From: an uncultured Anaerolineales bacterium
GTDB taxonomy: Bacteria > Chloroflexota > Anaerolineae > Anaerolineales > UBA11858
DNA: 64,000 bases
Assembly: GCA_964419495.1 (NCBI GenBank)
Contig: CAYQQX010000006.1
Span: forward strand, 486 to 64,485
Direction of reading: 5' to 3'
A model generated the notes under the pieces. The model saw nothing but the letters and a program-made list of their open reading frames with translations. It was not told the DNA's origin and ran no database searches. Position numbers and translations under genes: made by a program. Every line of letters begins with the position of its first letter. Position 1 is the first letter of the stretch. This document shows, in pieces, positions 1,446-38,769 of this stretch.

Positions 1446-1516
<71 letters not shown>

Positions 1517-1524
1517 AAAAAAAT

Positions 1525-1584
1525 GCTGATTGTTGACTGGAGATTATTGATTTTTATATCTACAATCTTCAATCTTCAATCAGC
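1525..1584 (-). other. long imperfect hairpin in the tRNA-Gly/tRNA-Cys spacer
   Basis: The arm gctgattgttgactggagattattgat pairs with atctacaatcttcaatcttcaatcagc (21 of 27 positions) around a ttttat loop. The right arm contains the tandem caatcttcaatcttcaatc. Confidence 0.6.
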
Positions 1585-1593
1585 AGTTTCTAG

Positions 1594-1665
1594 AGCGGGC
1601 GATGGGATTCGAACCCATGGCCTTCTCCTTGGCAAGGAGACGTTATACCACTTAACTACGCCCGC
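1594..1665 (-). tRNA. tRNA-Gly: tRNA-Gly (GCC)
   Basis: Minus strand reads GCGGGCGTAGTTAAGTGGTATAACGTCTCCTTGCCAAGGAGAAGGCCATGGGTTCGAATCCCATCGCCCGCT. The anticodon loop is TTGCCAA. Confidence 0.92.
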
Positions 1666-1693
1666 GAAATTCGGCCTTTTTTGAGACCGAGAG

Positions 1694-1766
1694 TGCCGAG
1701 AGCCAGAATCGAACTGGCGACACCACAATTTTCAGTCGTGTGCTCTACCAACTGAGCTATCTCGGC
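1694..1766 (-). tRNA. tRNA-Phe: tRNA-Phe (GAA)
   Basis: Minus strand reads GCCGAGATAGCTCAGTTGGTAGAGCACACGACTGAAAATTGTGGTGTCGCCAGTTCGATTCTGGCTCTCGGCA. The anticodon loop is CTGAAAA. Confidence 0.92.
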
Positions 1767-5578: not shown

Positions 5579-5650
5579 GCCGACGTAGCTCAACGGTAGA
5601 GCAGCCGCCTTGTAAGCGGCAGGTTATGGGTTCGATTCCCATCGTCGGCT
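5579..5650 (+). tRNA. tRNA-Thr: tRNA-Thr (UGU)
   Basis: GCCGACGTAGCTCAACGGTAGAGCAGCCGCCTTGTAAGCGGCAGGTTATGGGTTCGATTCCCATCGTCGGCT. The anticodon loop is CTTGTAA. Confidence 0.92.
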
Positions 5651-5718
5651 CCTGTTGATAGTTGGCGATCAATGCTTACGCAAGTGGCCTTGATCTCGAA
5701 CTGGCAACAGTCTCGTGC

Positions 5719-5801
5719 GGGCGGATACCCAAGTGGCCAAAGGGAGCTGACTGTAAATCAGTTGTCAAACGACTTCGGCGGTTCGAATCCGTCTCCGCCC
5801 A
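5719..5801 (+). tRNA. tRNA-Tyr: tRNA-Tyr (GUA), long variable arm
   Basis: GGGCGGATACCCAAGTGGCCAAAGGGAGCTGACTGTAAATCAGT...GGCGGTTCGAATCCGTCTCCGCCCA. The anticodon loop is CTGTAAA and the extra arm is 14 nt. Confidence 0.9.
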
Positions 5802-5862
5802 CCTGCACTCGCTGATCGGTACAGACCATGTGCTTATCAGCGGGTAGTTATGTAAGAGACTA

Positions 5863-5935
<73 letters not shown>

Positions 5936-7447: not shown

Positions 7448-7526
<79 letters not shown>

Positions 7527-10048: not shown

Positions 10049-10187
10049 TATAATTCCGCCGTTCATAAACACTTCGCCAAAGACAGCAGGTGCTTTTGCC
10101 CTTCGACATTGCTCAGGGTTACAGCTTAATTTCCTGCCGAGGTGAGGCTTGATGCCCATAATCGGGCAATTCCTGATGGAAAATTGA

Positions 10188-10219
10188 GTCTTTACCTCGT
10201 TGCGAGGTAAAGACTTTTT
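10188..10219 (+). terminator. intrinsic terminator/attenuator between rplA and rplJ
   Basis: A perfect 12-bp stem GTCTTTACCTCG-TTG-CGAGGTAAAGAC is followed by TTTTT. Confidence 0.7.
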
Positions 10220-10222
10220 GCG

Positions 10223-10385
10223 TAAGAGAGCGTCCCTTTGGGTGTCCGTTCGCTCTCTTACCACTCCGACGCATGAGCGTCGGAGCTAGGCGTAGGTGTC
10301 ATATCGCCATACCGCCACTCCGGTTCAGGAGAACCGGAGTACAAAATTTCTAATAGCAAACTCTCGAAGAAAGGAGGACGTTTCT
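10223..10385 (+). promoter_or_regulatory. structured rplJ 5' leader (candidate L10(L12)4 autoregulatory leader)
   Basis: Three perfect 9-bp hairpins are present: AAGAGAGCG...CGCTCTCTT, CTCCGACGC-ATGA-GCGTCGGAG and CTCCGGTTC-AGGA-GAACCGGAG. The region ends at the SD AAAGGAGG. The position matches known L10 leaders, but the fold was not compared with a covariance model. Confidence 0.45.
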
Positions 10386-33306: not shown

Positions 33307-33363
33307 AGGGTGTACAAGGAATTTTTCCGATGACCCAATCATTGAGCGTACGTGGAGTACTCT

Positions 33364-33906
33364 ATGTCTGAGATGGTAGAAGTTGTTATTGATAGTATTC
33401 GAGTCAGCCTGATGAACCAACAGCGCATTGTCATTTTGCGCGAGTTGGAGGCAGAACGATATTTGGCGATTTGGATTGGCGTGTATGAAGCAGAACACCT
33501 GACGATCGCGCTGCAAGATGTCGAAGTCTCTCGCCCGTTGACTTATGATCTTTTCACGAAGGTGATCGATGAACTAAACGCCGAGGTTTCTCATATTGAA
33601 GTAGTTTCGCTGCGTGATGAAACCTTTTATGGCAATGTGGTCATCAACGTGAATGGTAGTGTGCTCAATATAGACTCACGTCCGTCGGATGCGATGAATT
33701 TGGCTGTGCGCAGCGGAGTGCCGATCCTGGTCTCTCGTGAAGTGATGGAAAGCGCAGGCATTGTCCCCGATGAAGATGATATCTCTATTGACGATATGGA
33801 TGATGTTGAGGCTGCGGCAGGCAAAGAGGATGCCCGTCTCTCTATTTTCAAGGATTTTCTGGAAGGATTAGATATCGACGAAGATGCCGAGGAAGAGGAT
33901 GACTAA
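33364..33906 (+). CDS. bifunctional nuclease (BFN/DUF151) domain protein with an acidic tail
   Basis: VILRELEAERYLAIWIGVYEAEHLTIAL...RPLTYDLF...DSRPSDAMNLAVRSGVPILV. The ORF is open from GTG 33352. Confidence 0.8.
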   Translation: MSEMVEVVIDSIRVSLMNQQRIVILRELEAERYLAIWIGVYEAEHLTIALQDVEVSRPLTYDLFTKVIDELNAEVSHIEVVSLRDETFYGNVVINVNGSVLNIDSRPSDAMNLAVRSGVPILVSREVMESAGIVPDEDDISIDDMDDVEAAAGKEDARLSIFKDFLEGLDIDEDAEEEDD

Positions 33907-34077: not shown

Positions 34078-36750
34078 ATGAGTATTCACACCATTCCCGA
34101 TACTGAAAGTCAGACGGCTGGCCCCCAGGTTGTACCCCACAGCAGGGAGGCAGAAGAAGCTGTCATCGGTTCGATTCTCATCAACCCTGAAGCCTATTAC
34201 GATGTTGCTGAGTTTTTGCAGGGTGAGGATTTCTATATCCACCGTCATCGCTGGATCTGGCAGTCCTTTGCTCGCTTGCAGCAGAACCGTACCCCAATTG
34301 ATTCACTGACCGTGATGGAAGATCTAGATCAACAAGGCCAATTGGCCGAAATTGGCGGAGCTTCCTATATCACTTCGCTGATCAACAGTGTTCCGTCGTC
34401 GCTGCATGCTATTTCTTATGGTCGTATCGTTGAAGAGACAGCCGTACGCAGGCGCATGTTAGAAGCAGCCAACAAAATTGCCAAGTTGGCCTATGAGGAA
34501 GAAACCGGCCTAGAAGCGGTCATGGATGACGCGGAGAAGGCTGTTTTCGGAGTCAGTGAGCGCCGCTTGACGCGCGACCTGGCACCTATTCAACAGGTGC
34601 TCAGCGAGTATTATGATGAGATCAGCGAATTGGCTGGCAAGGATGAAGAAATTCGCGGCGTGCCCACCGGTTTCATCGATATCGACAATTTACTTGGCGG
34701 TCTGCAGCCTTCAGATCTGCTCATAATTGCTGGACGTCCCGGTATGGGTAAAACTGGTTTCGCCCTCTCCCTGGCAAAAAATGCTGCCCTGACTCACAAA
34801 AAACACGTCGCCATATTCTCTTTGGAGATGGGCAATGATCAATTGGTGCAGCGCTTGCTCTCCCAAGAGACTGGGATCGATTCGCAGCGCTTGCGCATGG
34901 GCAAGCTCAAGGAAGACGAATGGTCTTTGTTTACTCACGCCATCGAGGTGCTTAGTGACACGACCATCTTTCTGGACGATACGCCAGGAATCACTCCGCT
35001 GCAGCTGCGCACCAAGTGCCGGCGCCTGCACCTCGAGCACCGCCTCGACTTGGTCATTGTCGATTATTTACAGTTGATGTCTGGGGATACTCGCAATGAA
35101 AATCGCGTGCAAGAGGTGTCATATATCTCACGCCAGATGAAGATTCTGGCGCGCGAGCTCAGGGTGCCGGTGCTGGCTGCGGCTCAGCTCTCTCGTGCCG
35201 TTGAGCAGCGTGGTGATAAACGCCCGGTGTTGTCTGACCTCAGGGAAAGTGGATGTCTTACTGGTGATACGCTTGTGCAACTGGCGGATGGATGTCGAGT
35301 GCCAATCCGGTCCTTAGCTGAAAATAACGTAAATGCCAAAATCATGGCGCTCAATGAAGAGACATGGAAAATTGAACTGACTGATTTTCGTAAAGCATGG
35401 TTCACTGGTACGAAGCCTGTATTTCGTTTGCGAACAAGCTTAGGTAGAGAAATACGTGCCACAGGAAACCATAAATTCCGTACCATTGATGGTTGGAAAA
35501 GACTGGATGAACTGAGTCCAGGTGATCATATTTCATTACCGCGCACATTGGAGCAACTACCTTCGGAAGAATCGTCTCTCTCCCTGGCTGAAGCTGCTTT
35601 ACTTGGCCATCTGATTGGTGATGGATGCACGCTTCCCAGACATGCAGTTCAATATACGACGAATAATGGTGAATTAGCCAGGCTTGTTGCTGATCTGGCA
35701 GTTGAAATTTTTGGCGATGATATCGTTCCACGTATCAAGGCAGAACGCCAATGGATACAAGTTTATCTGAGTGCCGCTCAACATTTGACACATAAGACGC
35801 GTAATCCTATTGCCGCGTGGTTGGATGATTTAAGCATCTGGGGATATCGCTCATATGAGAAGCGTGTGCCAGATATTATGTTTGAGCAGCCCGCGGAGAT
35901 CATTCGCCATTTCTTGCGACATTTATGGGCAACAGACGGGACATTGGGTGTGTTTGGGCGCAAGAAACCTCGCGCCACGATCAGATTTATGACCAGCAGT
36001 AATCTGTTGGCTTCGAATGTTCAACATTTATTATTGAGAGTGGGTATTGTTGCCCGCTTGAGTCGAGTTCCACAGCCGGGTAAAGGTAGAGACCAATGGC
36101 ATGTAACCATAACTGGCAAACCTGATGTACTCAAATTCGCGGACTTCATTGGGGTTGTCGGTCCAAAAGAAGATCGTTTGGAAGCATTGCAAACGTTTTA
36201 TCAGAATCGCACCCATATCACGAACAAAGATATCATTCCTAAGCAGACGTGGCATTCAATTGTAGAGCCAACCCGTTATGCTTTGGGACTAAGTCAGCGT
36301 GAATTTCAGGCTTCGATTGGAACGCAATATTGTGGAACGGCTCTTTACAAATCGAATTTGAGCCGGAAAAGGGCTTTTCGTGTGGGAAATGTGTTGCAAA
36401 GTGATCCACTACTGGCTCTCAGCCAGAGTGATGTTTTTTGGGACAAAATTGTTGCCATCGAAAACGATGGTGTTGAAAATGTTTACGATCTGGAAGTTCC
36501 CGGCTACCATAATTTTGTTGCCAACGATATCGTTGTTCATAATTCTTTGGAGCAGGATGCTGACATAGTTATGTTCATCTATCGCCCTGAGATGTATGAA
36601 GACGACCCTGCCAAGCAGAACCTGGCTGAGGTGATTGTGGCGAAACACCGTAATGGCCCCATTGGCAGCGTGCAGTTGATCTTCCGTAAAAATTTGGCTA
36701 AATTTGAGAACGCTGCTACTCGAGTTGTGGATCTGCAGCAGGTGACCTGA
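34078..36750 (+). CDS. dnaB: replicative DNA helicase DnaB, interrupted by a 430-aa intein
   Basis: The exteins total 460 aa. Motifs: PHSREAEEAVIGSIL, GRPGMGKTGFAL (Walker A), VIVDYLQLM (Walker B), LSDLRESG|...|SLEQDADIVMFIYR. Confidence 0.96.
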   Translation: MSIHTIPDTESQTAGPQVVPHSREAEEAVIGSILINPEAYYDVAEFLQGEDFYIHRHRWIWQSFARLQQNRTPIDSLTVMEDLDQQGQLAEIGGASYITSLINSVPSSLHAISYGRIVEETAVRRRMLEAANKIAKLAYEEETGLEAVMDDAEKAVFGVSERRLTRDLAPIQQVLSEYYDEISELAGKDEEIRGVPTGFIDIDNLLGGLQPSDLLIIAGRPGMGKTGFALSLAKNAALTHKKHVAIFSLEMGNDQLVQRLLSQETGIDSQRLRMGKLKEDEWSLFTHAIEVLSDTTIFLDDTPGITPLQLRTKCRRLHLEHRLDLVIVDYLQLMSGDTRNENRVQEVSYISRQMKILARELRVPVLAAAQLSRAVEQRGDKRPVLSDLRESGCLTGDTLVQLADGCRVPIRSLAENNVNAKIMALNEETWKIELTDFRKAWFTGTKPVFRLRTSLGREIRATGNHKFRTIDGWKRLDELSPGDHISLPRTLEQLPSEESSLSLAEAALLGHLIGDGCTLPRHAVQYTTNNGELARLVADLAVEIFGDDIVPRIKAERQWIQVYLSAAQHLTHKTRNPIAAWLDDLSIWGYRSYEKRVPDIMFEQPAEIIRHFLRHLWATDGTLGVFGRKKPRATIRFMTSSNLLASNVQHLLLRVGIVARLSRVPQPGKGRDQWHVTITGKPDVLKFADFIGVVGPKEDRLEALQTFYQNRTHITNKDIIPKQTWHSIVEPTRYALGLSQREFQASIGTQYCGTALYKSNLSRKRAFRVGNVLQSDPLLALSQSDVFWDKIVAIENDGVENVYDLEVPGYHNFVANDIVVHNSLEQDADIVMFIYRPEMYEDDPAKQNLAEVIVAKHRNGPIGSVQLIFRKNLAKFENAATRVVDLQQVT
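35254..36543 (+). mobile_element. DnaB intein with a LAGLIDADG homing-endonuclease domain
   Basis: It starts CLTGDTLV (block A) and has ATGNH (block B). The two dodecapeptide motifs are LLGHLIGDGC and FLRHLWATDGTL. It ends VYDLEVPGYHNFVANDIVVHN, followed by the +1 Ser. This is the same insertion point as the Ssp/Rma DnaB inteins. Confidence 0.92.
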
Positions 36751-37433
36751 TGACTTTTGCGGGATTCCCTGATGGGAAAGTGAGATTCACGCCAATCCCT
36801 GAGCCGTTTTTCAGTGAGTTACTTCCCCAGGTCGATGATATCGGGGAACTCAAAGTGACGCTATATGCTCTGTGGCGGTTGGAACGCATGGAGGGGAATT
36901 TCCTTTATTTGAAGGAATCTGATTTTCGAGCGGATGAGCGCTTTATGTTTGGGTTGGCCCCCACGCCCGAGGAGGCTGAATCAACCCTGAGCGAATCCCT
37001 TGAGCGCGCTGTGGACCGAGGTATTTTCCTGCAAGTAGAGGTCGAAGCGCAAGAGGATGTACTTTTCTTCCTGAATACTACTAAGGGGAGAGCCGCTGTA
37101 GAGGCAATCCAAAAAGGCAATTGGCAGCCCGGAGATTCTCCCCAAGCTACGTCGGTTCTATCCCAAGAACGACCTACGATTTACCATCTCTATGAGCAAA
37201 ATATTGGGCTGATCACGCCGCTGCTTTCGGAGACGCTTCAGGAAGCTGAAGATTCGTATCCGGCCGAGTGGATTGAGGAAGCCTTCCGCATTGCGGTTCA
37301 AAAGAACATTCGAAACTGGCGTTATATCGAGGCAATTTTACGACGCTGGCAAGAAAGAGGTTATGATGTCCGAAAAGATCGACGAGACCCTGAAGAACAT
37401 CGCCGACAATACGCCGACTGGGAAGAAGACTGA
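36750..37433 (+). CDS. DnaD-domain replication/primosome protein
   Basis: The C-terminal IYHLYEQNIGLITPLLSETLQEAEDSYPAEWIEEAFRIAVQKNIRNWRYIEAILRRWQERG is a DnaD/DnaB_2 C-terminal domain. Its ATG overlaps the dnaB TGA. Confidence 0.8.
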   Translation: MTFAGFPDGKVRFTPIPEPFFSELLPQVDDIGELKVTLYALWRLERMEGNFLYLKESDFRADERFMFGLAPTPEEAESTLSESLERAVDRGIFLQVEVEAQEDVLFFLNTTKGRAAVEAIQKGNWQPGDSPQATSVLSQERPTIYHLYEQNIGLITPLLSETLQEAEDSYPAEWIEEAFRIAVQKNIRNWRYIEAILRRWQERGYDVRKDRRDPEEHRRQYADWEED

Positions 37434-38769
37434 AAATTCGTCGGAAGCTCCAATCCGGGATTTGCCTGGGGATCCGTCATGCCCTATTTGTGGGGGTTTA
37501 GGATTTATTCGGCAAGACGTGCCCATTGGCCATCCGGAATTTGGCAAGATGCATATCTGTTCTTGTCGAAAAGTGGATCTTGACCGGCGCATGCACAAGC
37601 GTCTTTTTGCACTCAGTCGTCTGGAAGAGCTGCAGCATTTGAATTTCGACAACTTTCGGCCGCGCGGCCGAGTTGGGCTAAGGCCAGCGCTGGCTGACTC
37701 TCTGGAACAGGCATTCAACCAGGCGCAGATGTTTGCGCGCACACACCAGGGGTGGTTGTTGATGTATGGTGGTTATGGCTGTGGAAAAACACATCTGGCC
37801 GCAGCAATTGCCAATTTTGCAGTCGATATGGGCATCGCTACTTTATTTATTACTGTACCTGATCTTCTAGACAGTTTGCGCTTTTCCTATGATGATCCCA
37901 ATGCCACCTTTGAACAACGCTTCGAAGAAATTCGCACCGCACCCCTGTTGATCATGGATGATTTCGGCACACAGAATGCCACCGAATGGGCGCAAGAGAA
38001 ATTATTCCAAATATTGAACTATCGCTATATTAATAAGCTGCCGCTGGTAGTGACAACAAATTTGCTCATTGAAGAGATGGAACCGCGTATCCGATCGCGT
38101 CTAGACGACCCCGATTTAGTGACGCGAGTTATTATTAAAGCGCAAGATTACCGCCGTCCCGAAAACGATCGGCTGGGTCATTCGACTCTCTCTGCCTCGA
38201 TGGATTTTTTGCATAAGCTGACTTTTACGGCCATTGACTTCAGAGAGAAAGAAAATCTTCAGGGTGATCAAGTTGAAAGCCTTAAGCGTGCCTTTGACGA
38301 GGCGCGTGAATTTGCGGAACAGCCTGAGGGTTGGCTGGTGTTGACTGGCCCCTATGGTTGTGGCAAAACCCATTTGGCCGCCGCGATTGCTAATTTCCGC
38401 GCCAACCAGGGCCATATGCCCATGTTTGTAGTCGTGCCTGATTTGATGGATCATTTGCGGGCCACTTTTGGGCCGCGCAGTTCGGTAAGCATGGATCGTC
38501 TCTTTGAGGATGTCAAACGGGCGCAGCTTTTGGTCTTGGATGATTTGGGAACCCAAAACATGACTCCCTGGGCTAGGGAAAAACTGTACCAGCTATTCAA
38601 TTATCGGTACAACGCCGAACTGCCCACAGTGATCACGACACCAGAACTGAAGGATGAGATGGACCCACGTTTGCTCAGCCGCATGCGGGATACGCGCCTA
38701 AGCGTGATTTGTGCCATTACTGCGCCTTCATATAGGGGGGCAAAGAAGAAAAGAAAAAAGAAACGATAA
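37363..38769 (+). CDS. tandem-duplicated DnaC/DnaI-like AAA+ helicase loader with an N-terminal zinc-binding motif
   Basis: CPICGG...HICSC is followed by two modules: GWLLMYGGYGCGKTHLAAAIANF...LLIMDDFG...LVVTTN...RIRSRL and GWLVLTGPYGCGKTHLAAAIANF...LLVLDDLG...VITT...RLLSRM. There is a poly-Lys tail. The start is uncertain: ATG 37363 or 37366 (overlapping the upstream gene by about 70 nt) or TTG 37462. Confidence 0.85.
   Translation: MMSEKIDETLKNIADNTPTGKKTENSSEAPIRDLPGDPSCPICGGLGFIRQDVPIGHPEFGKMHICSCRKVDLDRRMHKRLFALSRLEELQHLNFDNFRPRGRVGLRPALADSLEQAFNQAQMFARTHQGWLLMYGGYGCGKTHLAAAIANFAVDMGIATLFITVPDLLDSLRFSYDDPNATFEQRFEEIRTAPLLIMDDFGTQNATEWAQEKLFQILNYRYINKLPLVVTTNLLIEEMEPRIRSRLDDPDLVTRVIIKAQDYRRPENDRLGHSTLSASMDFLHKLTFTAIDFREKENLQGDQVESLKRAFDEAREFAEQPEGWLVLTGPYGCGKTHLAAAIANFRANQGHMPMFVVVPDLMDHLRATFGPRSSVSMDRLFEDVKRAQLLVLDDLGTQNMTPWAREKLYQLFNYRYNAELPTVITTPELKDEMDPRLLSRMRDTRLSVICAITAPSYRGAKKKRKKKR

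What the first reader, a model, noticed from the sequence alone, without database searches (positions are those of the whole stretch)
36750..38769. Covalently duplicated DnaC/DnaI-like helicase loader next to a DnaD-like gene and the intein-containing dnaB
One ORF carries an N-terminal Cys/His cluster (CPICGG...HICSC) like the DnaI helicase-binding zinc domain. It then has two complete AAA+ loader modules. Each has its own Walker A (G[GP]YGCGKTHLAAAIANF), Walker B (LL[IV][ML]DD[FL]G), sensor I region and Arg (RIRSRL / RLLSRM). The two halves are clearly paralogous at both the protein and DNA level, about 75% identical around the P-loop. Known loaders (DnaC, DnaI) are single-module proteins that oligomerise on DnaB, so a fused dimer implies a trimer-of-dimers or an asymmetric loader. 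The gene is translationally linked to a DnaD-domain gene, and that gene's ATG overlaps the dnaB stop. The result is a compact helicase / co-loader / loader operon. A poly-Lys tail (KKKRKKKR) ends the protein.
Basis: partly seen in the sequence, partly recalled or inferred. Interest (0 to 1): 0.7.

Follow-up and report, generated by a model that had tools for sequence, protein, structure and literature searches.

The report
Two-in-one helicase loader of Anaerolineae
The gene next to the replicative helicase encodes a DnaC/DnaI-type helicase loader with two ATPase modules in one chain; this layout is standard in Anaerolineae and appears undescribed, and rare relatives carry four or six modules in one chain.

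Summary
ORF 37366..38769 (+) encodes a 467-aa protein: an N-terminal helix, a CxxCxGxG...CxC zinc knuckle, two DnaC/DnaI/IstB-type AAA+ modules (45% identical to each other, E 1e-54) and a basic tail. It is not an assembly artefact. The same uninterrupted two-module gene lies downstream of dnaB and a DnaD-domain gene in at least 80 species-level Chloroflexota genomes. In nearly all of them a 65-95 nt out-of-frame overlap with the DnaD-domain gene is conserved, which settles the start codon. It is not IS21 IstB: it scores below the curated cut-off and no IstA is nearby. Both modules keep the Walker A Lys, Walker B Asp, arginine finger and the initiator-specific helical insert. The second module has lost the sensor-I Asn (TTP here; Asn in only 8 of 94 representatives, against 52 of 94 for module 1). 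The N-terminal domain is not recognisably DnaI_N. Relatives in the same genomic position have four modules (three lineages, one seen in two independent assemblies) or six modules (1224 aa, one contig). Their last module is always the divergent one and carries the tail. Most likely this is the chromosomal DnaB loader, with three chains supplying six AAA+ positions (inferred). I found no paper describing this. Verdict: a new variant of a known kind.

The parts
33352..33906 (+). BFN (bifunctional nuclease) domain gene, the conserved upstream neighbour of dnaB
   Evidence: Pfam BFN_dom, E 8e-36. Found upstream of dnaB in about 73 of 80 related loci and in L085.
34078..36750 (+). dnaB replicative helicase (890 aa; 460 aa once the intein is removed)
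   Evidence: NCBIfam PRK07773, 1128 bits (cut-off 780). Pfam DnaB, DnaB_C, Intein_splicing and LAGLIDADG_3.
35254..36543 (+). 430-aa intein with a LAGLIDADG homing endonuclease, inserted in dnaB at RESG/C...HN/SLEQD
   Evidence: Sequence boundaries; Pfam hits. Most relatives lack it: dnaB is about 1.4 kb in most loci.
36750..37433 (+). DnaD-domain protein (227 aa). Its ATG shares one base with the dnaB stop codon.
   Evidence: Pfam DnaB_2, E 5e-13. TIGR01446 DnaD_dom, 53.7 bits (cut-off 24.95). A family profile hits B. subtilis DnaD 8OJJ in its C-terminal domain, E 5e-9. The N-terminal 140 aa have no Pfam match.
37354..37360 (+). Shine-Dalgarno-like AAAGAGG upstream of the loader start codon
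   Evidence: Read from the sequence. A GGAGG/AAGGAG-like motif sits at the same place in most of 74 related loci.
37366..38769 (+). Two-module AAA+ helicase loader gene (467 aa from ATG 37366; an alternative ATG lies at 37363)
37366..37433 (+). Out-of-frame overlap between the 3' end of the DnaD-domain gene and the 5' end of the loader gene
   Evidence: Overlaps of 65-95 nt in 67 of 74 related loci.
37369..37407 (+). Conserved N-terminal helix (SEKIDETLKNIAD)
   Evidence: AF2 predicts a helix at residues 3-15 with low confidence. The motif is conserved in two-module and single-module relatives.
37480..37566 (+). Zinc knuckle, CPICGGLG...(22 aa)...CSC
   Evidence: C39, C42 and C65 are invariant and C67 is at least 90% conserved in alignment A2. 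No Pfam family matches. The CxxCxGxG part resembles the UvrA and DnaJ zinc knuckles only.
37585..38172 (+). Module 1: linker plus AAA+ core. Walker A 37768-37791, two-helix insert 37855-37935, Walker B 37945-37968, sensor I TTN 38053-38061, box VII RIRSR 38086-38100, sensor II DYR 38146-38154.
38173..38742 (+). Module 2: linker plus AAA+ core. Walker A 38347-38370, two-helix insert 38434-38517, Walker B 38527-38550, TTP in place of sensor I 38635-38643, box VII RLLSR 38668-38682, sensor II SYR 38728-38736.
38737..38766 (+). Basic C-terminal tail, GAKKKRKKKR
   Evidence: Read from the sequence. A basic tail is also present in the family consensus and in most single-, four- and six-module relatives inspected.

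Best explanation
This is the chromosomal replicative-helicase loader of an Anaerolineales bacterium (Chloroflexota). It is a DnaC/DnaI-type AAA+ protein of the initiator/loader clade in which the linker-plus-ATPase unit was duplicated inside the gene long ago.

Shown by the analyses:
- The domain order is N-terminal helix, zinc knuckle, AAA+ module 1, AAA+ module 2, basic tail.
- Both modules keep their nucleotide-binding and arginine-finger residues and the two-helix insert typical of initiator/loader AAA+ proteins.
- Module 2 has lost the sensor-I Asn.
- The gene lies in a fixed dnaB / DnaD-domain / loader arrangement with overlapping reading frames.
- The layout is the norm in Anaerolineae and also occurs in Dehalococcoidia.

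Inferred:
- The three proteins are made together from one transcript.
- The single N-terminal domain docks on DnaB.
- The AAA+ modules line up head to tail, as DnaC protomers do, with ATP held at module-module interfaces. One interface per chain is therefore hard-wired within the chain.
- Three chains would supply the six AAA+ positions that six DnaC or DnaI chains supply in E. coli or Bacillus.
- Module 2 binds ATP but hydrolyses it poorly. It acts as the asymmetric end of each pair and carries a basic tail that may touch DNA.
- The DnaD-domain protein prepares the origin, as DnaD does in Bacillus.
For: Family assignment:
- IstB_IS21 matches twice and PRK08116 scores above its cut-off.
- The nearest solved proteins are DnaI 2W58 and 5HE8, DnaC 6QEL and 3ECC, and then IstB.
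- Per-module Foldseek matches: DnaC 6QEM_G (target TM-score 0.64), DnaI 2W58 (0.71), IstB 8Q3W.
- AF2 (mean pLDDT 78) places two helices between strands 2 and 3 in both modules and predicts no lid domain, as in DnaC and DnaI.

Reality of the fusion:
- The halves match at E 1e-54.
- More than 100 full-length homologues are 63-92% identical.
- 174 stretches in species-level genomes encode a relative; the best 80 are near-full-length Chloroflexota matches.
- 94 of the best 150 representatives at 50% clustering have two modules.

Link to replication:
- dnaB, the DnaD-domain gene and the loader are adjacent in about 78 of 80 loci, with a conserved 65-95 nt overlap.
- Brezellec et al. 2016 (PMC5109545, supplementary table) list one dna[CI] gene and no dciA for Anaerolinea thermophila.

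Active sites across 94 two-module representatives, module 1 against module 2:
- Walker A Lys: 94 and 93.
- Walker B Asp: 94 and 91.
- Arginine finger: 90 and 88.
- Sensor-I Asn: 52 and 8.

Support for six positions:
- A relative in the same genomic slot has six modules and one N-terminal domain in one 1224-aa chain.
Against: - No stoichiometry or interaction data exist. AF2 pTM is only 0.56, so the relative placement of the two modules is not confidently predicted. I could not inspect the model coordinates or run a multimer prediction.
- Four-module relatives in three lineages do not divide evenly into six. The number of AAA+ positions per helicase may therefore not be fixed at six, or these forms may serve two helicases.
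- The N-terminal domain shows no detectable homology to the helicase-binding domains of DnaI or DnaC, so its docking role is assumed by analogy.
- I could not scan the rest of this genome for a second loader or for DciA.
- Loss of the sensor-I Asn does not prove loss of hydrolysis; several single-module relatives also lack it.
Confidence: 0.7

Rival explanations
1. It is the helicase loader, but the two modules do not sit side by side in one six-position spiral. Six chains bind one DnaB hexamer through six N-terminal domains. This gives twelve modules in two tiers or an extended filament, or allows one assembly to handle two helicases for bidirectional replication.
For: - Known loaders bind DnaB 6:6 through their N-terminal domains (established knowledge of DnaC in 6QEL and of DnaI).
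- Four-module relatives fit 12 positions (3 x 4) better than 6.
- IstB, a relative, works as a decamer (8Q3W and 8Q4D appear among the hits).
Against: - The six-module, single-N-terminal-domain relative argues that one N-terminal domain per six modules can suffice.
- Whole-chain Foldseek matches to stacked two-ring AAA+ proteins (p97, NSF) have rmsd of 12-22 A, so the stacked geometry is not supported.
Confidence: 0.17
2. Module 2 is a degenerate pseudo-ATPase. It serves only as a scaffold or regulatory domain, for example a built-in inhibitor or DNA-binding adaptor, and module 1 does all the loader chemistry.
For: - The sensor-I Asn is lost in module 2 in 86 of 94 representatives.
- C-terminal modules are less conserved across the family (mean identity C to C about 0.38, N to N about 0.43).
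- The basic tail is attached to this module.
Against: The Walker A Lys (93 of 94), Walker B Asp (91 of 94) and arginine finger (88 of 94) of module 2 are as conserved as in module 1. That is not expected for a dead site.
Confidence: 0.08
3. It is a helper ATPase of a mobile element (IS21 IstB type) or of a prophage replication module, and not the host's own loader.
For: - Pfam names the domain IstB_IS21.
- The IS21 helper model gives 152 bits.
- dna[CI] genes are thought to derive from phages (PMC5109545).
Against: - The score is below the curated cut-off of 200.
- No transposase or phage genes flank the gene. The neighbours are BFN, dnaB, the DnaD-domain gene, an FTR1 iron permease, a membrane protein and a sulfatase-like ORF.
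- The position next to dnaB is fixed across about 80 species.
- The best phage matches (786 of 50,697 records matched) each span about 570-750 nt, the length of one module.
Confidence: 0.03
4. It is an assembly or annotation artefact: two adjacent loader genes read as one because a stop codon was missed.
For: None found.
Against: The reading frame is open throughout. The same fused ORF is present in independent assemblies from many projects. The modules are only 51% identical at the DNA level, so repeat collapse is not plausible.
Confidence: 0.01

Closest known systems
DnaI of Bacillota (B. subtilis, G. kaustophilus 2W58, S. aureus 5HE8)
   Same: - Best sequence match among solved structures (E 8e-16) and a per-module fold match (target TM-score 0.71).
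- DD-type Walker B.
- An N-terminal cysteine-rich domain precedes the ATPase.
- It works in a system that also has a DnaD-domain protein.
   Different: - DnaI has one AAA+ module per chain; this protein has two.
- The DnaI model PRK08939 scores 146 bits against a cut-off of 228.
- The N-terminal domain matches neither Pfam DnaI_N nor DnaI chains in the PDB.
- Here the gene lies directly downstream of dnaB. From my own knowledge, in B. subtilis dnaI sits in a dnaB(Bsu)-dnaI operon away from the helicase gene.
DnaC of E. coli (6QEL, 6QEM) and of Aquifex aeolicus (3ECC)
   Same: AAA+ loader of the initiator clade with the two-helix insert, a box VII arginine, an SYR sensor II motif and no full lid domain. 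In that system six modules form a spiral on the DnaB hexamer.
   Different: DnaC has a single module and a short helical N-terminal domain without zinc. The DnaC model scores 123 bits against a cut-off of 357. DnaC uses no DnaD partner.
NCBIfam PRK08116 / PRK06835 'ATP-binding protein' subfamilies (uncharacterised DnaC-like proteins)
   Same: PRK08116 is the only curated model passed (231 bits, cut-off 189). The PRK06835 match also extends over the N-terminal cysteine region.
   Different: The models are 269-330 positions long, the size of a single module. This protein matches them twice.
IstB, the IS21 transposition helper (5BQ5, 8Q3W)
   Same: Same Pfam domain and AAA+ clade. It oligomerises on DNA.
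   Different: The score is below the IstB cut-off, there is no IstA partner, the gene has a fixed chromosomal position next to dnaB, and it has two modules.
Two-module (type II) AAA+ proteins such as p97, NSF and ClpB
   Same: Two AAA+ modules in one chain. They are the top whole-chain Foldseek hits.
   Different: Those matches have rmsd of 12-22 A and 13-19% identity. They belong to the classic clade, form stacked rings and have lid domains; the present modules belong to the loader clade and have no lid.

Membership tests
DnaC/DnaI-type AAA+ helicase loaders (initiator/loader clade) | AAA+ core with Walker A and Walker B motifs that matches the IstB_IS21/DnaC models | tested here: met
   PF01695 matches in 2 stretches, E 1e-36. 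PRK08116 gives 231 bits, above its cut-off of 189. The motifs were read from the sequence.
DnaC/DnaI-type AAA+ helicase loaders (initiator/loader clade) | Two-helix initiator-specific insert between strands 2 and 3, and a truncated lid | tested here: met
   AF2 secondary structure gives helices 165-177 and 183-191 in module 1 and helices 358-367 and 377-385 in module 2. No helical bundle follows strand 5. This rests on a model, not on a solved structure.
DnaC/DnaI-type AAA+ helicase loaders (initiator/loader clade) | Box VII arginine finger and sensor II arginine | tested here: met
   RIRSR with DYR in module 1 and RLLSR with SYR in module 2. The arginine finger is kept in 90 and 88 of 94 representatives.
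DnaC/DnaI-type AAA+ helicase loaders (initiator/loader clade) | Sensor I polar residue (Asn) after strand 4 | tested here: inconclusive
   Module 1 has TTN. Module 2 has TTP. Asn is present in 52 of 94 N-terminal modules but only 8 of 94 C-terminal modules.
DnaC/DnaI-type AAA+ helicase loaders (initiator/loader clade) | Functional association with the replicative helicase DnaB | tested here: met
   The association is genetic only. The gene is adjacent to dnaB in about 78 of 80 related genomes and in L081-L085. Physical binding and loading cannot be tested with these tools.
DnaC/DnaI-type AAA+ helicase loaders (initiator/loader clade) | One AAA+ module per polypeptide (true of all characterised members) | tested here: not met
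   Two modules are present. This is the point of difference, which is why I file it as a variant.
DnaI proper (Bacillota) | Passes the DnaI equivalog model and has the DnaI_N zinc domain | tested here: not met
   PRK08939 gives 146 bits, below its cut-off of 228. The N-terminal 105 aa have no Pfam hit. A family profile does not find DnaI chains in the PDB.
DnaC proper (Enterobacteria) | Passes the DnaC equivalog model | tested here: not met
   PRK07952 gives 123 bits, below its cut-off of 357.
IS21 IstB helper ATPase | Passes the IstB equivalog model and lies next to an IstA transposase | tested here: not met
   NF038214 gives 152 bits, below its cut-off of 200. No transposase-like ORF lies within 33-43 kb of the window.
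DnaD family (neighbouring gene 36750-37433) | C-terminal DnaD/DnaB_2 (DDBH2) domain | tested here: met
   TIGR01446 gives 53.7 bits, above its cut-off of 24.95. PF07261 matches at E 5e-13. A family profile hits DnaD 8OJJ, 2I5U and 2ZC2.
DnaD family (neighbouring gene 36750-37433) | N-terminal winged-helix oligomerisation domain (DDBH1) | tested here: inconclusive
   Residues 1-140 have no Pfam hit, and the PDB profile match covers the C-terminal domain only. The fold was not modelled.

The most novel reading that the evidence does not exclude
Chloroflexota carry a family of concatenated helicase loaders. The AAA+ positions that other bacteria fill with separate DnaC or DnaI chains are here written into one polypeptide: N-terminal helix and zinc knuckle, then 0, 1, 3 or 5 'N-type' modules, then one divergent 'C-type' cap module with a basic tail. 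That gives 1, 2, 4 or 6 modules in total. The window's two-module protein would act as a trimer, with one ATP site per chain hard-wired within the chain. The 1224-aa relative would be a natural single-chain hexameric loader that needs only one helicase-docking domain. If so, only one to three docking contacts per DnaB hexamer are needed, and the ATP sites around the loader spiral are not equivalent by design.
Probability: 0.35. Interest if true: 0.8.

Novelty: new variant of a known kind. Interest (0 to 1): 0.6.

Why it matters
How many loader subunits and how many ATP sites are really needed to open or assemble a DnaB ring is still debated (DnaC 6:6, lambda P 5:6, DciA without an ATPase). A natural loader with two ATPase modules tied together fixes the order of the modules. 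It halves the number of helicase-docking domains and makes the two ATP sites different, because one lacks the sensor-I Asn. That gives a ready-made system for asking which sites must bind ATP, which must hydrolyse it, and how many docking contacts are needed. The four- and six-module relatives extend this series. It also shows that a large, abundant bacterial class (Anaerolineae) uses a replication-initiation set unlike either textbook model: DnaB, a DnaD-domain protein and a tandem loader, with overlapping genes. Databases label the protein only as 'ATP-binding protein' or 'DnaC'.

Tried and rejected
- Assembly artefact: rejected. The frame is open, the modules are only 51% identical at the DNA level, and the same ORF appears in many independent assemblies.
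- IS21 IstB or a phage module: rejected on the curated cut-off, the neighbouring genes and the conserved synteny. The best phage matches each span one module's length.
- Homology of the N-terminal zinc region to DnaI_N: not found, either by Pfam at E up to 5 or by a family profile against all PDB sequences. Only generic CxxCxGxG knuckles of UvrA and DnaJ matched.
- TTG 37462 as the start: rejected. The upstream peptide and the ribosome-binding site are conserved.
- DNA-level direct repeat inside the gene: none found with the repeat finder.
- Single origin of the duplication: unresolved. By best hit, 63 of 94 proteins show positional orthology (N to N and C to C). A crude neighbour-joining tree on 161 columns does not separate N and C modules cleanly. 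Recent re-duplications clearly occur (modules 79-88% identical in P0124, P0134, P0341, P0376 and P0321).
- Whole-chain Foldseek hits to p97 and NSF: these arise only because both proteins have two AAA+ domains (rmsd 12-22 A).
- Relative geometry of the two modules: could not be examined, because model coordinates are not exposed and no multimer prediction is available.
- P0124 and P0134 have odd C-terminal ends (a repeated tail in P0124, a frameshift-like end in P0134). I did not count them as reliable three-module forms.
- Six literature searches found no description of a tandem or concatenated loader. The library lacks most subscription journals, so this is not proof of absence.

Full report
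**What is there.** The window has one uninterrupted ORF at 37273..38769 on the + strand. Pfam matches IstB_IS21 in two separate stretches (E 1e-36). NCBIfam subfamily PRK08116 also matches in two stretches and passes its curated cut-off (231 bits against 189). The equivalog models all fall below their cut-offs: DnaI 146/228, DnaC 123/357, IS21 IstB 152/200. BLASTP of the two halves against each other gives 44% identity over 192 aa, E 1e-54.

The duplicated unit is about 190 aa. It comprises a linker, a helix and the ATPase core, but not the N-terminal cysteine motif. Over the whole codon-aligned modules it is only 51%, and the repeat finder sees no direct DNA repeat. This is an old duplication, not a recent repeat.

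**Start codon and operon.**
- Upstream lie dnaB (34078..36750, with a 430-aa LAGLIDADG intein at 35254..36543) and a 227-aa DnaD-domain gene (36750..37433). TIGR01446 and PF07261 both pass their cut-offs for that gene.
- A profile of the DnaD-domain protein's relatives hits B. subtilis DnaD (8OJJ) in its C-terminal domain, E 5e-9.
- The DnaD-domain ATG shares one base with the dnaB stop codon (TGATG).
- The loader starts at ATG 37366 (or 37363), preceded by AAAGAGG. It therefore overlaps the end of the DnaD-domain gene by 68-71 nt in another frame.
- In 74 related loci the equivalent overlap is 65-95 nt in 67 cases. A GGAGG-like motif sits upstream, and the N-terminal peptide M(S/T)EKIDxTLKK is conserved. 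The TTG at 37462 is not the start.

**Not an artefact, not a mobile element.**
- A search of 5.8 billion proteins returned more than 100 full-length homologues of about 470 aa at 63-92% identity. They are named only 'ATP-binding protein' or 'DnaC', from Chloroflexi/Anaerolineales bins.
- A scan of one genome per GTDB species found 174 stretches that encode a relative. The best 80 are near-full-length matches (most cover at least residues 5-457 of the query), and nearly all are labelled Anaerolineae, Anaerolineales or Chloroflexota. The best is a Black Sea Anaerolineales MAG at 95% identity.
- In about 78 of those 80 loci the order is BFN-domain gene, dnaB, DnaD-domain gene, loader.
- No transposase or phage gene lies nearby. 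Downstream are an FTR1 iron permease and membrane or sulfatase-like ORFs.
- Of 50,697 phage records, 786 match. In the best of them both query modules align to one stretch of about 570-750 nt, the length of a single module.

**How wide the architecture is.**
- An exhaustive HMMER search of 1.84 billion representatives clustered at 50% identity gave 27,433 hits at E up to 0.001.
- Of the best 150, 94 have two modules, 48 have one (some of these are fragments), one has three and one has four.
- Every two-module member that carries a taxon name is from Chloroflexota: Anaerolineae, Aggregatilineales, Phototrophicales and Dehalococcoidia, including marine Tara sequences.
- Single-module relatives of about 280 aa in Dehalococcoidia have the same N-terminal helix, zinc knuckle and basic tail. 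The ancestor was therefore helix, zinc knuckle, linker, AAA+ module, tail, and the linker-plus-AAA+ unit was duplicated internally.
- Identity between the two modules of one protein has a median of 38%.
- Whether there was one duplication or several is unresolved. Best hits show positional orthology in 63 of 94 proteins, but a crude neighbour-joining tree does not separate N-terminal from C-terminal modules.

**Active sites.** On a module-level alignment of 94 two-module representatives, N-terminal against C-terminal module:
- Walker A Lys: 94 and 93.
- First Walker B Asp: 94 and 91.
- Box VII arginine finger: 90 and 88.
- Sensor II Arg: 54 and 52 (many gaps at this alignment edge).
- Sensor-I Asn: 52 and 8.

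In the window the two sensor-I positions read TTN and TTP. Both modules are thus under selection as nucleotide-binding, interface-forming units. The second has a systematically altered catalytic pocket.

**Structure.** AF2 run on a 78-sequence alignment gives mean pLDDT 78 and pTM 0.56. Each module has the strand order of an AAA+ core, two helices between strands 2 and 3 (the initiator-specific insert of DnaA, DnaC and Orc), and no lid bundle. Residues 16-32 and the inter-module segment 268-276 are low-confidence. Per-module Foldseek matches are E. coli DnaC in the DnaB-DnaC complex (6QEM_G), DnaI (2W58, 5HE8) and IstB (8Q3W). Whole-chain matches to p97 and NSF have rmsd of 12-22 A and reflect only the presence of two AAA+ domains. 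By sequence, the nearest solved proteins are DnaI, then DnaC, then IstB, then DnaA.

**N-terminal domain.** The cysteines of CxxCxGxG...CxC are invariant or nearly so, so metal binding is plausible. The region has no Pfam match, including DnaI_N. A family profile finds only the zinc knuckles of UvrA and DnaJ in the PDB, not DnaI. 'DnaI-like' is therefore an analogy of position, not demonstrated homology.

**Relatives with more modules.** These turned up while I surveyed the family.
- P0121 (827 aa) has four modules.
- P0321 (1224 aa, 84% identical to P0121) has six modules, all with an intact Walker A, and a single N-terminal zinc knuckle.
- P0341 (839 aa) and P0376 (845 aa), from other lineages (36-38% identical to P0121), have three near-identical modules (82-87%) followed by one divergent module.
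- All of them sit directly downstream of dnaB. In three of the four contexts (L081, L082, L085) a DnaB_2 (DnaD-like) gene was called in between.
- P0376 occurs as an identical protein in two independent assemblies.
- In every case the last module is the outlier. In P0121, P0321 and P0341 it alone lacks the sensor-I Asn. P0121, P0321 and P0376 end in a basic tail.
- The general plan is helix, zinc knuckle, n copies of an N-type module, one C-type module, tail. The window's gene is the common n = 1 form.
- The six-module form rests on one contig. Its extra modules are 56-79% identical to the other N-type modules, which argues against a simple assembly chimera.

**Mechanism.**
- Shown: the architecture, the conservation of the sites, the synteny and the gene overlap.
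- Inferred from what is known of DnaC (6QEL, 6QEM) and DnaI: the N-terminal region docks on DnaB; the modules line up head to tail with ATP at the interfaces; one interface per chain is intramolecular; three chains fill six positions; module 2 is a slow or non-hydrolysing site; the basic tail may contact DNA; the DnaD-domain protein acts at the origin.
- The six-module relative supports six positions served by one docking domain. The four-module forms do not fit six neatly and keep open a twelve-position or flexible-number model.

**Known or new.** Brezellec et al. 2016 (PMC5109545) counted one dna[CI] gene and no dciA in Anaerolinea thermophila and inferred one domestication event in Chloroflexi. 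The words tandem, fused and duplicat- do not occur in the text or the supplements held. Six full-text searches found no description of a tandem or concatenated loader. The proteins are in public databases under generic names. I therefore rate this as a new variant of a known kind. It is moderately to highly interesting for the replication field, and most of the added interest comes from the module-number series.

Noticed in passing
L082:4518-8192 (JGI 3300037755); L081:6001-8484; L085:6001-8520; L083:6001-8538 and L084:1644-4181: Relatives of the loader have six (1224 aa) or four (827-845 aa) AAA+ modules in one chain, all directly downstream of dnaB. The last module is always the divergent one. 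The four-module layout arose in at least three lineages, and one four-module protein is identical in two independent assemblies.
   Followed up: partly
window 35254-36543: dnaB carries a 430-aa intein with a LAGLIDADG homing endonuclease at RESG/C...HN/SLEQD. From memory, this is the site of the Synechocystis DnaB intein. Only a few of the 80 related loci (L009, L016, L017) have a full-size insertion there; L081 and L082 have a shorter intein.
   Followed up: partly
window 37366-37433 and the equivalent place in L001-L080: The end of the DnaD-domain gene and the start of the loader gene overlap out of frame by 65-95 nt in most relatives. This is unusually long for bacterial gene overlaps. Both frames encode conserved peptide: the basic C-terminal end of the DnaD-domain protein and the N-terminal helix of the loader.
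   Followed up: partly
window 33352-33906: A BFN (bifunctional nuclease) domain gene sits immediately upstream of dnaB here and in most related Anaerolineae loci. It may belong to the same replication or repair gene neighbourhood.
   Followed up: no
L054 (CP070731.1, 1878636-1892018): A 2.6-Mb record titled 'Flavobacteriaceae bacterium isolate bin416 chromosome' encodes the Anaerolineae-type two-module loader (58% identity) with a DnaD-like gene upstream. The record is probably mislabelled taxonomically. Only a short dnaB match was seen next to it.
   Followed up: no
window 1446-1766 (-), 5579-5935 (+), 7448-7521 (+), 10059-10229 (+): There are two tRNA clusters (seven tRNAs in all) and a ribosomal protein L10 leader. 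This part of the window is core chromosomal, translation-related sequence, consistent with a chromosomal rather than mobile setting.
   Followed up: no
P0124 (792 aa) and P0134 (564 aa), database proteins: Two relatives have pairs of modules 88% identical and odd C-terminal ends: a repeated tail in P0124, and a third P-loop continuing out of frame in P0134. These are either very recent module amplifications or assembly or frameshift errors in repeated DNA.
   Followed up: no
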